DNA from: Candidatus Multivoradales bacterium
GTDB taxonomy: Bacteria; Acidobacteriota; Thermoanaerobaculia; Multivoradales; JAHEKO01
Length of the DNA: 64,000 bases
Direction of reading: 5' to 3'
Assembly (NCBI GenBank): GCA_965223155.1
Contig: CBDCVR010000014.1
Location: forward strand, 512,001-576,000
Shown here: in pieces, positions 49,674-61,051 of the stretch
Numbering within the stretch: position 1 is the first letter of the stretch
How the letters are laid out: each line of letters begins with the position of its first letter
Notes under the pieces: generated by a model
What the model saw: the letters and a program-made list of their open reading frames with translations, nothing else
Database searches by the model: none
What the model was told of the DNA's origin: nothing
Translations under genes and position numbers: made by a program

Positions 49674-49746
49674 GAAATAGGGTGACAGGATACCTATCTC
49701 CTGCAGCCGGCCAACCGGAGAAATAGGTATCCTGTCACCCTATTTC
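49674..49746. repeat. REP/REPIN-like inverted doublet
   Basis: GAAATAGGGTGACAGGATACCTATCTC (49674-49700) and an inverted copy at 49720-49746 (26/27 identical); each unit is itself a stem-loop. Confidence 0.9.
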
Positions 49747-53188: not shown

Positions 53189-53469
53189 AACCACATATTA
53201 GCATATTTCCGTGTACCGTAGGCGACCCTGACCGATGTTCCCCGCTCGAGGCCGATTCCGCCTGGGAGGCACTGCGCAACACGCCCGAGTGGGACGAGCT
53301 TCTGGCCTCGTTGCCTGACGGTTGACTCCGCTGAAGACTCGGACAGATCGCGCGGCAAATCTGGGAGACAGGGTGACAGATGAGATGAGTCGGTCGGTCT
53401 CCAGCTGGGACACTGTGCCAGTTGGAGATAACCAAGAATCGGCATCAGAGCCGAGAAAGGAGACCGACC

Positions 53470-54483
53470 ATGGAGTATCTTGGCATCGATGTTCACTCGA
53501 AGTACAGCGAGGTGTGTGGCGTATCAGAAGACGGTGAGGTGACGGTTCGCCGGCGGGTTCCGACGACCGAGACGGGCCTGCGAAGGTTCTTCGCCAATCG
53601 GGAACGCTCGCAGGTGACGCTCGAGAGCGGTCCGGTCACACCCTGGGTCTATCGACTGCTGTCTGAGCTCGGCCATGAGGTGATGGTGGTCAATCCACGC
53701 CGGGTACGTCTGATCGCGGAATCGACCCTGAAGACGGACGGAATCGACGCCGAGATCCTGGCTCGTTTGAGCCGGTTGGATCTGGGTTTGCTTCGACCAG
53801 TCTACCAGCGCACAGGTGAGGCCCAAGAGCTTCGGACGCGTCTTCGGGTCCGAACGAGTCTGGTGAAGACCAGGACCTCGCTGATCAACTCCGTACGCGG
53901 AACGCTGCGGGCACAGGGCTACCGAGTGCCCTCATGTCCGGCGAAGAGCTTCGTGGCTCGGTACGCGTCGATGTCGGTCGAAGCCGGCCTGTTGGGAGCG
54001 CTCGAACCTCTGGTAACGACAATCGGCGAGCTGACCGATCGGATCCACCATCTCGAAGACGACCTCATCTCCGAGTCGAGATCAAACGAGCTGGTCCGTC
54101 GGCTGCAGACGGTTCCTGGTGTGGGGCCTCTGGTGAGCCTTGCGTTCGTCGGCTGGATGGATCGTCCGGATCGGTTCGAGAAAAGCCGCGACGTCGGAGC
54201 GTGTCTGGGCTTGAGACCGTCGCTTCGCAGCTCAGGAGGGCATGAGGTCAGGGGCCGGATCACTCGCGAGGGCGACTCGGAGATGCGCAGACTCTTGGTG
54301 CAGGCAGCTCATGCGGCGTTGAACTGTCGCAAAGAGTCGTCACTCAAGAGATGGGCTGAGGGCCTGGTCGAGAGGCTGGGTAAGGGCAAGGCCGTGGTCG
54401 CGCTAGCTAGGAAGATCGCGGTGTTGCTCCACAGGCTGTGGGTGACAGGTGAGAGCTTCCGAGCCTTTCCCAAGGCAGCGTAG
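53470..54483 (+). CDS. IS110-family DEDD transposase/recombinase
   Basis: LGIDVH, LESG, KTDGIDA, VPGVG, GLRP...SSGG, ALARK; SD AAGGAG. Confidence 0.95.
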   Translation: MEYLGIDVHSKYSEVCGVSEDGEVTVRRRVPTTETGLRRFFANRERSQVTLESGPVTPWVYRLLSELGHEVMVVNPRRVRLIAESTLKTDGIDAEILARLSRLDLGLLRPVYQRTGEAQELRTRLRVRTSLVKTRTSLINSVRGTLRAQGYRVPSCPAKSFVARYASMSVEAGLLGALEPLVTTIGELTDRIHHLEDDLISESRSNELVRRLQTVPGVGPLVSLAFVGWMDRPDRFEKSRDVGACLGLRPSLRSSGGHEVRGRITREGDSEMRRLLVQAAHAALNCRKESSLKRWAEGLVERLGKGKAVVALARKIAVLLHRLWVTGESFRAFPKAA

Positions 54484-54519
54484 AAGAGATAACTAGACGA
54501 CCAACAAGCAAGGACGGAT

Positions 54520-54670
54520 TGAGAGGTTCGATGACTCCGAAAGTATCCTTGGTGGCCCCGACACCGTGTGACAGATGGGAGCATCGATTCCTAAACGGAC
54601 GCAAAACTCACCATGCACCGGTTCAAAGAAGAACCCTACAGAGTGCGAATAGAAGCTCGTCCCAAGCCTC
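54520..54670 (+). ncRNA. putative bridge/seekRNA of the IS1111-type element (boundaries approximate)
   Basis: Two stem / internal-loop / stem modules; loops contain GTATCCT and GTGACAG (target) and ATAGAAG and CTCA (donor). Confidence 0.75.
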
Positions 54671-54827
54671 GATCCAAACCTAAGGAAAACTACAAAAAGA
54701 AGAAACGAAACTCTTGACGCCAACCGACCGACTCATAGAAGGATGCCTGTCTTCTTGAGGCTACCGACAGGCCGGCTGGTCCGCCCCGAGTTGCCGCCAA
54801 GGGCCGGCTCGCCCGTCCATCCAAAGG

Positions 54828-54845
54828 ATAGGGATCCTGTCACCC
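54828..54845 (-). repeat. REP-like repeat copy; inverted partner of the IS-interrupted copy
   Basis: Reverse complement GGGTGACAGGATCCCTAT. Confidence 0.8.
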
Positions 54846-59548: not shown

Positions 59549-59680
59549 GTGCCTATTGCCAGGGACTTACTCCGCGCCTCCTCGTCCCGAACAGCCCCCA
59601 CCGTCTGCTGGATCTTCCTCCGATGGCGGGGCGGGCATGCAATTGTCCACGAAGTTTAGGCAGCTTCCGAATCCCGCGAG

Positions 59681-61051
59681 GAGCTATGGTCGAAAGTTGT
59701 GTATGAGTTGAGATGAAGGCGGCGTATCCTGAGTCCGGTTTTCCAAATCGGATTCAAACCCTCAAAGAAGGAGGATACGCCTTGAGCAAGAGTAACGTAG
59801 TTTCGATTGACCGATCAGAGAGTTCGAGAGATGCCTTGACCGAAGTGCTTCGCCGCGGCTCACGCGAGTTGCTTCGCGAAGCGATCGAAGCCGAGGTCGA
59901 GAGCTTCCTGGCCGAGTACCGAGGCGAGCAAACGGAAGATGGCCGGCGCCGCATGGTTCGCAACGGCTACCTGCGCGAGCGTGAGATCCAGACGGGAATC
60001 GGAGGTGTGCCGGTGAAGGTGCCTCGGGTTCGGGATCGTGAAGGTGAGTTGGTCTTTCGCTCGAAGATCGCGCCTCCGTATCTCAGACGGGCCAAGAGCG
60101 TCGAGGAGCTGCTGCCGTGGCTCTATCTGCGCGGCATCTCCACCGGAGATTTCTCCGATGCCCTGGAAGCTCTGGTAGGCCCCGACGCCCCGGGGTTGTC
60201 AGCCGCGACGATCAGCCGTCTGAAGAAAGTCTGGGCCAAGGAGTACACCGACTGGCGCACCCGGGACTTGTCCTCCAAGCGCTACGTCTACGTGTGGGCG
60301 GATGGGATCCATACCAAGGCTCGTCTGGACGACGCGAAGCTGTGCCTGCTGGTACTGATTGGCGCCACCGAGGACGGCACCAAGGAGCTCATCGCCGTCG
60401 AAGACGGCTACCGCGAGAGCGAGGCTTCCTGGCTCGAGCTCTTGCGTGGACTCGAAGCGCGAGGGCTTGCCATCGAGCCGAAGCTGGCGACCGGTGACGG
60501 CGCTCTGGGCTTCTGGAAGGCCCTGGCTCAGGTCTGGAGCAACACCAAGACCCAGCGTTGCTGGGTCCACAAGACCGGCAACGTCTTGAACAAGATGCCC
60601 AAGGCCGTCCAGCCAAAGGCCAAGCAGGCGCTGCACCAGGTCTGGATGGCCGAAACGCGCGAGGCTGCCGAGCGAGCCTTCGATGCCTTCCTGTCGACCT
60701 ACGGGGCCAAGTACCCGAAGGCGACGCGTTGCCTGGCCAAGGATCGCAAGGTCCTGCTGACCTTCTACGATTTCCCGGCCGAGCATTGGGTCCATCTCAG
60801 GACCACGAACCCGATCGAGTCGACCTTTGCCACCGTACGCCTTCGAACGGCCAAGACCCGTGGTTGTCTCTCCCGCGAGACCATGCTCTCGATGGTCTTC
60901 AAGCTGAGCCAGAGTGCCGAGAAACGATGGCGGCGGCTACAGGGCTACAAGCGAATCGCCGACGTTGTCCGAGGTGTCAAATTCGTTGATGGAGAACCCA
61001 AGAACCGGATCGCCGCCTGAGTCACCCGTACACAACATTTGACGATAACTC
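59681..61051 (+). mobile_element. IS256-family insertion sequence with 9-bp target duplication
   Basis: IRs GAGCTATGGTCGAAAGTTGTGTA and TACACAACATTTGACGATAACTC (19/23 match); TSD TCCCGCGAG at 59672-59680 and 61052-61060. Confidence 0.95.
59782..61020 (+). CDS. IS256-family transposase
   Basis: RNGY, PRVRDR, YVWADG, GDGALGFW, QRCWVHK, RTTNPIES; TTG start after AAGGAGG. Confidence 0.95.
   Translation: MSKSNVVSIDRSESSRDALTEVLRRGSRELLREAIEAEVESFLAEYRGEQTEDGRRRMVRNGYLREREIQTGIGGVPVKVPRVRDREGELVFRSKIAPPYLRRAKSVEELLPWLYLRGISTGDFSDALEALVGPDAPGLSAATISRLKKVWAKEYTDWRTRDLSSKRYVYVWADGIHTKARLDDAKLCLLVLIGATEDGTKELIAVEDGYRESEASWLELLRGLEARGLAIEPKLATGDGALGFWKALAQVWSNTKTQRCWVHKTGNVLNKMPKAVQPKAKQALHQVWMAETREAAERAFDAFLSTYGAKYPKATRCLAKDRKVLLTFYDFPAEHWVHLRTTNPIESTFATVRLRTAKTRGCLSRETMLSMVFKLSQSAEKRWRRLQGYKRIADVVRGVKFVDGEPKNRIAA

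What the first reader, a model, noticed from the sequence alone, without database searches (positions are those of the whole stretch)
53365..54754. IS1111-type element with a readable bridge/seekRNA programmed against a host REP-like repeat
SEEN: removing the element restores GAGACAGGGTGAC-AG-GATGCCTGTCTTC, a copy of the repeat GGGTGACAGGATACC found at 49680, 49726, 54831 and 62419. The 3' non-coding end has two modules. Module 1: stem TCGATG-a-CTCC (54528-38) / GGAG-CATCGA (54578-87) encloses GTATCCT (54543-49, reverse complement of target AGGATAC), an inner hairpin GGTG/CACC, and GTGACAG (54568-74, left target plus core). Module 2: GGACG/CGTCC with inner GCAC/GTGC carries ATAGAAG (54649-55, right end plus core) and CTCA (partial match to the left end ATGAG). 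The guide matches the consensus GATAC, while the occupied site is GATGC, which a G:U wobble would allow. KNOWN: IS110/IS1111 recombinases use such bispecific RNAs. INFERENCE: a new programmable recombinase/RNA pair with an AG core and a right-guide-then-left-guide order.
Basis: partly seen in the sequence, partly recalled or inferred. Interest (0 to 1): 0.82.

Follow-up and report, generated by a model that had tools for sequence, protein, structure and literature searches.

The report
IS1111-type insertion sequence with guide RNA
This is an active, multi-copy insertion sequence of the known IS1111 type whose own small RNA reads the 12-base loop of a host hairpin repeat to choose its landing site: a clean new example of a published mechanism, not a new one.

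Summary
A 1362-bp element (window 53378-54739) carries a 337-aa IS110/IS1111 DEDD transposase, 14-bp subterminal inverted repeats with 7-nt and 3-nt extensions, and a 256-bp 3' non-coding region.

The genome has 15 copies. All 15 are flanked on the left by GGTGAC-AG, and 14 of 15 on the right by GATAC; the window copy has GATGC. There are 17 empty copies of the 12-mer, against about 0.08 expected by chance. Two insertions have matching empty alleles in the same assembly.

[quoted passage not shown] Across 68 distinct guide pairs, the loop sequences track each element's own flanks and ends. A sibling IS in the same genome (81% nucleotide identity) differs in the target loops and sits in a different repeat.

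The novelty claim is not. The downstream RNA, the order of top-strand guide before bottom-strand guide, REP targeting and recombination at an AG dinucleotide are all published for this family (Siddiquee 2024, Durrant 2024, Pares-Guillen 2025).

RNA expression was not testable. Verdict: new member of a known kind.

The parts
53372..53377 (+). Left half of the occupied target (GGTGAC), part of a REP-like hairpin repeat
   Evidence: 15 of 15 copies have GGTGAC before the core
53378..54739 (+). The insertion sequence, 1362 bp. Boundaries follow the IS1111 convention, with core AG counted at the left end; 53380-54741 is equivalent
   Evidence: 14 full-length copies plus 1 split copy at about 100% identity; searches give flanks and empty alleles
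53378..53384 (+). 7-nt left terminal extension AGATGAG (core AG plus ATGAG)
   Evidence: The 7-nt left and 3-nt right extensions are the IS1111 hallmark (PMC11187229 section 4); one search shows the same layout in relatives
53385..53398 (+). Left subterminal inverted repeat ATGAGTCGGTCGGT (14 bp)
   Evidence: perfect reverse complement of 54723-54736
53470..54483 (+). Transposase gene, 337 aa, preceded by AAGGAG
   Evidence: PF01548 8.5e-25 and PF02371 4.5e-21. NF033542 'IS110 family RNA-guided transposase', 241 bits (cut-off 140). GLRPSLRSSG motif at residues 247-256
54508..54668 (+). Structured non-coding RNA region (both modules), the length class of the published 'long seekRNA' or bridge RNA
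   Evidence: covariance model R1 matches 98 of 100 relatives' loci downstream of tnp; 92.9% of cells paired against 76.5% in shuffles
54528..54587 (+). Module 1, the target-binding module: outer stem 54528-38 / 54578-87, inner hairpin 54550-54 / 54562-66
   Evidence: helices 3 and 5. Compensatory change 54553 T>A with 54563 A>T in the sibling IS
54543..54549 (+). 5' target guide GTATCCT, the reverse complement of core plus right target AGGATAC
   Evidence: It changes to AAAAGGGT in sibling IS-B, whose right flank is ACCCTTTT
54568..54574 (+). 3' target guide GTGACAG, identical to left target plus core, so it would pair with the bottom strand
   Evidence: It changes to GTGCCAG in IS-B, whose left flank is GGTGCCAG
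54607..54610 (+). Short 5' donor guide CTCA, complementary to TGAG of the left end (53381-53384)
   Evidence: 5 of 6 CTCA-bearing relatives have left end AGATGAG, and all 6 TCCA-bearing ones have a left end ending in TGGA. The covariation is partial
54615..54646 (+). Inner stems of module 2 (GCAC/GTGC and CCGGTTC/GAACC)
   Evidence: helices 6-8: 98-99.7% paired with two-sided changes. 54623 T>C with 54632 A>G in IS-B and L020
54649..54655 (+). 3' donor guide ATAGAAG, identical to right end plus core (54735-54741)
   Evidence: the loop 7-mer equals the element's own right end plus core at 7 of 7 positions in 72 of 79 relatives, and covaries (ATGGAAG, ATAGAAG, ATGGCAG, ATAAGAG)
54714..54719 (+). 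TTGACG, a candidate -35 of a circle-junction promoter (inference)
   Evidence: TTGACG-N16-TAGAAG and N18-GAAGAT across the joined ends, both weak. TTGAC is conserved at this place in 6 of 6 aligned relatives
54723..54736 (+). Right subterminal inverted repeat ACCGACCGACTCAT
54740..54746 (+). Target core AG plus right half GATGC, a variant of the consensus GATAC
   Evidence: 14 of 15 copies have GATAC; only this copy has GATGC
54832..54843 (-). Inverted, 1-mismatch copy of the target 12-mer about 90 nt downstream, forming a doublet with the occupied repeat

Best explanation
This is a recently active IS1111-family insertion sequence. Its DEDD transposase is guided by an RNA made from the element's own 3' non-coding region.

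Module 1 of that RNA presents two short guides in an internal loop. [quoted passage not shown] Together they read the conserved 12-nt loop of a host hairpin repeat.

Module 2 presents AUAGAAG (right end plus core) and CUCA (left end). These hold the joined ends of the excised circle. Recombination at the shared AG dinucleotide then inserts the element in one orientation with no target duplication.

Shown here:
- the family membership of the protein and of the element's ends;
- the site and orientation specificity;
- the conserved, covarying RNA structure;
- the co-variation of the guides with each element's flanks and ends.

Inferred from published work on relatives: that the RNA is made, that it binds the transposase, and the chemistry of the reaction.
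For: Protein and ends. Both Pfam domains are present, and the NCBIfam model 'IS110 family RNA-guided transposase' scores 241 bits. The protein is 337 aa, carries the GL-P----SG motif, and the element has 14-bp subterminal repeats with 7-nt and 3-nt extensions.

Copies and sites. The genome holds 14 full copies and 1 split copy. Of the 14 full copies, 12 give identical scores. All 15 have the same left flank and orientation, and 14 of 15 the same right flank. There are 17 empty sites against 0.08 expected. Contig C11 is the occupied version of the empty site at window 62419, and C7 is the occupied version of C14:366086.

RNA structure. Model R1 matches 98 of 100 relatives' loci, and in the genome itself exactly the 17 copies (15 of this IS, 2 of IS-B). 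28 of 32 pairs show two-sided changes, 0 of 500 shuffles reach the observed values, and slid controls pair only 27-45% of cells.

Guides. Over 68 distinct guide pairs, the mean longest match of guide to own flank is 6.46 on the right and 5.25 on the left. Permuted pairings give 3.42 and 3.40 (sd about 0.11), and 0 of 500 permutations reach the observed means. The donor loop equals the right end in 72 of 79 relatives.

Natural re-targeting. Sibling IS-B differs at 27 of 161 RNA positions. Six of these changes lie in the 5' target loop (five within the 7-nt guide itself) and two at the 3' guide; none lies in the donor loops. IS-B sits in GGTGCC/GGTTCC-A(G/C)-CCTTT sites. L052 (66% aa identity) has guide TTTTTGGT beside flank ACCAAAAA.
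Against: - No RNA data: no RNA run holds the stretch, so transcription, RNA ends and protein binding are untested here.
- The single-sequence fold is no better than shuffles (z -0.74 and -1.31).
- Alignment A4 was fitted to the model's structure, which inflates the pairing counts (caveat).
- No sigma-70-like promoter was found in the integrated element, and the junction promoter is weak.
- The left donor guide is only 4 nt, and its covariation is partial: 5 of 12 relatives with left end AGATGAG carry CTCA and 7 carry CCCA.
- In L020 the 5' guide GTAACCT mismatches its single observed flank AGGCTAC at one position.
Confidence: 0.9

Rival explanations
1. The transposase protein itself recognises the hairpin repeat by shape or sequence. 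On this reading the 3' RNA is only regulatory, or only a stabilising cofactor.
For: The target lies in the loop of an imperfect palindrome with variable stems. The proteins of the two sibling IS also differ, at 86% identity, so protein changes could in principle retarget the element.
Against: Loop-to-flank complementarity holds across 68 distinct guide pairs with unrelated targets. The changes between the siblings' RNAs concentrate in the two loops and match the new flanks base for base. Published reprogramming of IS1111 seekRNAs retargets insertion (PMC11187229, abstract).
Confidence: 0.05
2. The target-like 7-mers in the 3' region are a captured or left-over piece of the host repeat, not guides.
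For: Both 7-mers derive from the 12-mer that the element interrupts.
Against: The two halves are in swapped order and on opposite strands. They are separated by a hairpin and sit inside a stem conserved in relatives that use other targets. No orphan copy of the RNA module exists outside the IS copies.
Confidence: 0.02
3. The copies are inert relics, and the uniform flanks reflect duplication of already-occupied repeats rather than repeated insertion.
For: Two pairs of copies share one flank: C14:359748 with C7:4100 for at least 290 nt, and C15:971332 with C2:2113 for 60 nt.
Against: The other copies have unrelated flanks beyond the repeat. All reading frames are intact and 12 of 14 full copies score identically. 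Two loci exist in both empty and occupied forms in one assembly.
Confidence: 0.03

Closest known systems
ISPa11 (IS1111 family, Pseudomonas aeruginosa), as described in Siddiquee et al. 2024, PMC11187229
   Same: IS1111-type element that inserts at one position in a REP. Its RNA comes from the region downstream of tnp and co-purifies with the transposase. The top-strand complement lies 5' of the bottom-strand match.
   Different: Different host phylum and different target sequence. Sequence relatedness to ISPa11 was not measured here, because no ISPa11 sequence was available to the tools. RNA expression and binding are shown for ISPa11 and not for this element.
ISEc11 / ISXne4 pair (natural re-direction by replacement of the seekRNA target region; PMC11187229 section 10, passage read)
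   Same: Two related IS1111 elements keep the stems and swap the target-matching stretches. Here that is this IS and its sibling IS-B (86% aa identity, 81% nt identity).
   Different: Here both siblings live in one genome, and each targets a different host hairpin-repeat family.
IS621 bridge RNA (IS110 group; Durrant et al. 2024 PMC11208160; structure 8wt6)
   Same: Two-loop RNA. Each loop has one guide for the top strand and one for the bottom strand, and both include the core dinucleotide. It has a target loop and a donor loop, and its target is a REP.
   Different: In IS621 the RNA lies upstream of the gene in the left end, the left guide precedes the right guide, the core is CT, and the subterminal repeats are only 2-3 bp. 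Protein similarity to this element is remote (E 6e-10).
ISPpu9 / ISPpu10 (Pseudomonas putida; Pares-Guillen et al. 2025, PMC12288879)
   Same: REP-targeted elements that recombine at an AG dinucleotide present at both ends. They often insert in paired inverted REPs.
   Different: ISPpu9 is of the IS110 group, without inverted repeats. It has its own modular A/B boxes and an extra small-RNA gene.

Membership tests
IS1111 family of insertion sequences | DEDD (RuvC-like) N-terminal domain plus PF02371 C-terminal domain; transposase of 330-350 aa | tested here: met
   PF01548 8.5e-25; PF02371 4.5e-21; NF033542, 241 bits, cut-off 140; 337 aa
IS1111 family of insertion sequences | C-terminal GL-P----S(t)G motif (PMC11187229 section 6) | tested here: met
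   GLRPSLRSSG at residues 247-256. G247, L248, P250 and G256 are invariant in the 6-sequence alignment
IS1111 family of insertion sequences | Subterminal inverted repeats of about 11-13 bp, with terminal extensions of 7 bp (left) and 3 bp (right) | tested here: met
   14-bp perfect repeats at 53385-98 and 54723-36; extensions AGATGAG and AGA; the same layout in relatives
IS1111 family of insertion sequences | Longer non-coding region downstream of tnp | tested here: met
   256 bp downstream (54484-54739) against 92 bp upstream (53378-53469)
IS1111 family of insertion sequences | Site- and orientation-specific insertion without added bases | tested here: met
   15 of 15 copies are in the same site and orientation. 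Empty and occupied allele pairs differ only by the element
seekRNA / IS1111-type bridge RNA | Top-strand complement 5' of the bottom-strand match, overlapping at the insertion point, within a folded RNA from the 3' non-coding region | tested here: met
   54543-49 and 54568-74 overlap at AG; covarying fold; the family-wide guide-to-flank match exceeds 500 of 500 permutations
seekRNA / IS1111-type bridge RNA | Second loop complementary to the element's own ends (donor) | tested here: met
   ATAGAAG equals the right end plus core; 72 of 79 relatives match at 7 of 7 positions, with covariation. The left-end guide is short and only partly covaries
seekRNA / IS1111-type bridge RNA | The RNA is transcribed, processed and bound by the transposase, and is needed for transposition | not testable with these tools
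   No RNA run is listed for this sequence; no Rfam family matches
REP / REPIN (RAYT-associated repetitive extragenic palindromes) | Imperfect palindrome, repeated, often in inverted pairs | tested here: met
   variable stems around a conserved 12-nt loop, with inverted pairs 45-80 nt apart. About 32 exact sites (17 empty and 15 occupied) is few for a REP family
REP / REPIN (RAYT-associated repetitive extragenic palindromes) | A cognate Y1 (RAYT) transposase gene flanked by the repeat | tested here: not met
   One PF01797 gene is present (C14:32014-32367). No copy of the repeat with up to 2 mismatches lies within about 1.5 kb of it. 'REP-like' is therefore only descriptive
REP / REPIN (RAYT-associated repetitive extragenic palindromes) | Extragenic location | not tested
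   Gene context of the 32 sites was not examined

The most novel reading that the evidence does not exclude
The sibling IS-B is a natural experiment on the core dinucleotide. Its 5' target guide reads AC+CCTTTT, while its 3' target guide and both donor guides keep AG.

Three empty sites read GGTTCC-AC-CC(C/T)TTTCG. The copy on C15 carries AG at its left junction and AC at its right junction. If this generalises, IS1111-type recombinases can join a donor and a target whose cores differ, and the junctions record which strand's core is inherited. That would bear on where the strands are cut.

A second open point is that the 3' strand CGTCC has two alternative 5' partners (GGACG at 54512 and at 54597). 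These could be two conformations of the RNA.
Probability: 0.25. Interest if true: 0.4.

Novelty: new member of a known kind. Interest (0 to 1): 0.3.

Why it matters
It adds a well-documented IS1111-type recombinase and guide-RNA pair from a high-GC genome whose nearest relative is in an Acidobacteria MAG. The pair comes with 15 natural insertions, two loci seen both empty and occupied, and a sibling that was naturally re-targeted within the same genome.

This is useful as a catalogue entry and as a starting point for tool development. The family-wide tables of guide against flank and of donor loop against end independently support the published model for the second (donor) module. Siddiquee et al. 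2024 left the role of the 'long seekRNA' open.

It does not open a new mechanism.

Tried and rejected
- Rfam: nothing relevant matched the region at E up to 1 (one chance snoRNA-like hit at 0.76). Over the whole window only a tRNA reached its gathering score.
- RNA evidence: no RNA holder was listed. The laid DNA contigs showed no joints and no empty-site form at this locus. They showed only that the element's word depth is about 71 against 3-5 in the flanks for runs X1 and X2.
- Promoter and terminator scan of the integrated element: 0 promoter-like sites, and one terminator-like site at chance level.
- A single-protein scan of genome contigs gave only 2 relatives. I therefore used the genome search over the phylum (27 of 401 genomes matched at E <= 1e-40, G000 included) and a metagenome scan (80 loci kept of 580 confirmed).
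- Module 2 closing stem. A crude longest-stem test gave 4.89 for leader with tail, against 4.62 +/- 0.09 in permutations (maximum 4.875). It gave 4.34 for linker with tail, against 4.19 +/- 0.08 (maximum 4.39).
- RAYT link for the repeat: not found.
- Supplementary files of papers were closed, and figures are not held. I could not see Durrant's Extended Data Fig. 10c and Supplementary Table 5, nor Siddiquee's Supplementary Figs 2 and 6-8. They may already show this clade's fold, its cores or close relatives.
- Rows dropped. Of 99 model matches, 22 were left out and 17 out, because no inverted-repeat pair or too little flank was found. Identical guide pairs were collapsed from 78 to 68. Several kept rows have visibly misplaced ends (for example L044, L046, L047, L121), which lowers the observed means.
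- L028 comes from the unpublished genome G152.
Full report
WHAT IS THERE

The window is part of contig C14 of a 4.0-Mb genome with 66-67% G+C. Between 53378 and 54739 lies a 1362-bp element. Its parts, in order, are:
- a 7-nt left extension, AGATGAG;
- a 14-bp subterminal inverted repeat (53385-53398);
- a 337-aa open reading frame (53470-54483) behind an AAGGAG ribosome-binding site;
- a 256-bp non-coding region;
- the second inverted repeat (54723-54736);
- a 3-nt right extension, AGA.

The protein carries both Pfam domains of the IS110/IS1111 transposases (PF01548 8.5e-25, PF02371 4.5e-21). It passes the NCBIfam equivalog 'IS110 family RNA-guided transposase' (241 bits, cut-off 140). It has the GL-P----SG motif at residues 247-256. 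Its nearest solved relatives are remote: ISCro4 at 3e-10 and IS621 at 6e-10.

Siddiquee et al. 2024 (PMC11187229, sections 4 and 6 read) use these features to separate IS1111 from IS110: inverted repeats with 7-nt and 3-nt extensions, the long non-coding region on the 3' side, and a protein of 330-350 aa. All are met.

COPIES AND TARGET

A search of the whole genome with the element found 19 places:
- 14 full-length copies, of which 12 have identical scores;
- one copy in two pieces on C7;
- two copies of a sibling at 81% identity, here called IS-B;
- a 40-nt fragment.

In the element's own orientation, all 15 copies are preceded by GGTGAC-AG. Fourteen of the 15 are followed by GATAC.

The uninterrupted 13-mer GGTGACAGGATAC occurs 17 times, against 0.08 expected. 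In the window the 12-mer occurs 4 times with at most one mismatch, against 0.11 expected. The 12 conserved bases form the loop of an imperfect palindrome whose stems differ from site to site, and sites often come in inverted pairs.

Beyond the repeat, the flanks of the copies are unrelated, except in two pairs that share one side.

Two small contigs are variant versions of chromosomal stretches. C11 matches C14:570779-577038 and carries the element exactly at the site that is empty at window 62419. C7 matches C14:355657-366092 and carries it at the empty site C14:366086. These pairs, empty and occupied, show precise insertion at GGTGAC^AG^GATAC with no other change. Together with the identical copies they point to recent activity.

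The single Y1-transposase gene of the genome is not flanked by the repeat. I therefore call the repeat REP-like only as a description.

THE RNA

Folding the single sequence recovers the module-1 stem (54528-38 with 54578-87), its inner hairpin, and the GCAC/GTGC stem of module 2. The energies, however, are not better than those of shuffles. Homologs were therefore needed.

I collected the following loci:
- an 85%-identical element from an Acidobacteria MAG (L020);
- 28 loci from other genomes of the same phylum, at 34-56% protein identity;
- 80 metagenome loci at 40-66% identity.

A covariance model was built from this IS, IS-B, L020 and L052. It matched 98 of the 100 loci searched, with 99 matches in all. 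Of the two misses, L104 holds only 86 bases past the end of its protein match. Visibly, the matches lie downstream of the transposase gene.

On that alignment 92.9% of cells pair, against 76.5% in shuffles and 27-45% when partners are slid. Twenty-eight of 32 pairs show changes on both sides, and 0 of 500 shuffles reach any observed measure. The alignment was fitted to the model, which favours the structure. The compensatory changes among the four closest sequences are independent of that: 54553/54563 and 54623/54632.

In the genome itself the model finds exactly 17 places, the 15 copies of this IS plus the 2 of IS-B, and no orphans. The 161-nt span fits the published 'long seekRNA' of 145-170 nt. 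Module 1 fits the 70-100 nt short form (PMC11187229, section 14).

DO THE LOOPS READ THE DNA?

In this element, GTATCCT is the reverse complement of AG+GATAC, and GTGACAG equals GTGAC+AG. Together they cover exactly the conserved 12-mer.

IS-B, in the same genome, differs from this IS at 27 of 161 RNA positions. Six of these changes lie in the 5' target loop (five within the 7-nt guide itself), two lie at the 3' guide, and none lies in the donor loops. Its guides read AAAAGGGT and GTGCCAG. Its two copies sit in GGTGCC-AG...AG-CCTTTCC and GGTTCC-AG...AC-CCTTTTCG. Empty sites of that second repeat exist: GGTTCCACCC(C/T)TTTCG three times and GGTGCCAGCCTTTTCC once.

L052 has guide TTTTTGGT beside flank ACCAAAAA.

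Across the family I placed the ends by their inverted repeats and compared each element's loops with its own flanks. Over 68 distinct guide pairs the mean longest match is 6.46 on the right and 5.25 on the left. Permuted pairings give 3.42 +/- 0.12 and 3.40 +/- 0.11, and 0 of 500 permutations reach the observed means.

For module 2, the 7-mer after GTGCG equals the element's own right end plus core at all 7 positions in 72 of 79 cases. It changes together with the end: ATGGAAG, ATAGAAG, ATGGCAG, ATAAGAG.

The 4-nt motif before GCAC tracks the left end only in part. CTCA is found with left end AGATGAG in 5 of 6 cases, and TCCA with a left end ending in TGGA in 6 of 6. But 7 of the 12 AGATGAG elements carry CCCA.

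MECHANISM

The best reading is the published one. The transposase, loaded with the RNA from its own 3' region, holds the joined ends of the excised circle through module 2 and the host repeat through module 1. It recombines at the shared AG.

Transcription may start at a promoter formed across the joined ends. TTGACG at 54714-19 is conserved in six of six close relatives. It stands 16-18 nt before weak -10-like hexamers at the junction. None is seen in the integrated copy. This step, RNA processing and protein binding are inferences from ISEc11, ISPa11 and IS621 and are not shown here.

COMPARISON AND NOVELTY

- the downstream RNA, and the order of top-strand guide before bottom-strand guide (Siddiquee 2024, abstract and section 9);
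- bridge RNAs in the right end of 93% of IS1111 elements (Durrant 2024, section 12 passage);
- REP targets (ISPa11, ISPpu10, IS621);
- recombination at AG (ISPpu9, PMC12288879 passages).

In my own data nearly all placed relatives begin AG-ATG and end GGA or AGA before AG. No Rfam family exists for the RNA, but the authors' own models do.

The element is therefore a new member of a known kind. Its merits are the quality of the natural evidence and the pair of siblings aimed at two different host repeats.

OPEN POINTS

1. Family data lean towards the outer partner but do not exclude the inner one.

2. IS-B's right guide reads an AC core while its left and donor guides read AG. Its C15 copy has AG at the left junction and AC at the right junction. 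This is a single natural case of a core mismatch.

3. L020's guide mismatches its only observed site at one base.

LIMITS

There are no RNA data.

Noticed in passing
G000:C13:297859-299225 and G000:C15:372322-373687 (L016, L017); fragment at C13:299287-299326(-): Sibling element IS-B (81% nt, 86% aa identity) has the same ends and donor loops but different target loops. It is inserted in a second hairpin-repeat family, GGTTCCACCC(C/T)TTTCG. The C15 copy has AG at its left junction and AC at its right junction, while the matching empty sites read AC.
   Followed up: partly
window 59680-61051 (+): A 1372-bp IS256-family element: 435-aa transposase, NF033543 at 326 bits, and an 8-bp direct repeat TCCCGCGA on both sides. 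At least 4 copies exist in the genome. One interrupts a copy of the IS1111-type element on contig C7 (11414-12782).
   Followed up: partly
contigs C7, C11, C2, C5, C8, C9, C1 of G000: Small contigs are variant versions (90-99.8% identity) of chromosomal stretches. Some carry extra insertions of the element: C11 against window 62419, and C7 against C14:366086. The assembly seems to hold more than one haplotype or strain.
   Followed up: partly
G000:C13:297800-307800: A 10-kb stretch dense in mobile DNA: IS-B, an IS-B end fragment, the IS256-type element, two copies of the IS1111-type element in opposite orientation, and at least 7 empty copies of the target repeat.
   Followed up: no
window 54512-54516 and 54597-54601: GGACG occurs twice, and both copies can pair with CGTCC at 54658-62. 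In some relatives the equivalent 5' partner is also duplicated (for example CGCC twice in L027). This could reflect two alternative conformations of the RNA.
   Followed up: partly
L020:2541-2701 and its flanks: In the 85%-identical element from an Acidobacteria MAG, the 5' guide is GTAACCT but the observed right flank is AGGCTAC, one A-C mismatch. An inverted copy of GGTGACAGGCTAC lies just downstream, so that genome's repeat seems to differ by one base from the guide.
   Followed up: no
G000:C14:32014-32367 (-) (L132): The only Y1-transposase (PF01797) gene of the genome. It is flanked by short GC-rich palindromes of another kind (CCCCTCAAGGGG-like), not by the target repeat.
   Followed up: partly
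window 53380-53389: The left end starts with a direct duplication, ATGAG-ATGAG. The second unit is the start of the inverted repeat. Relatives have ATGGG-ATGAG at the same place.
   Followed up: no
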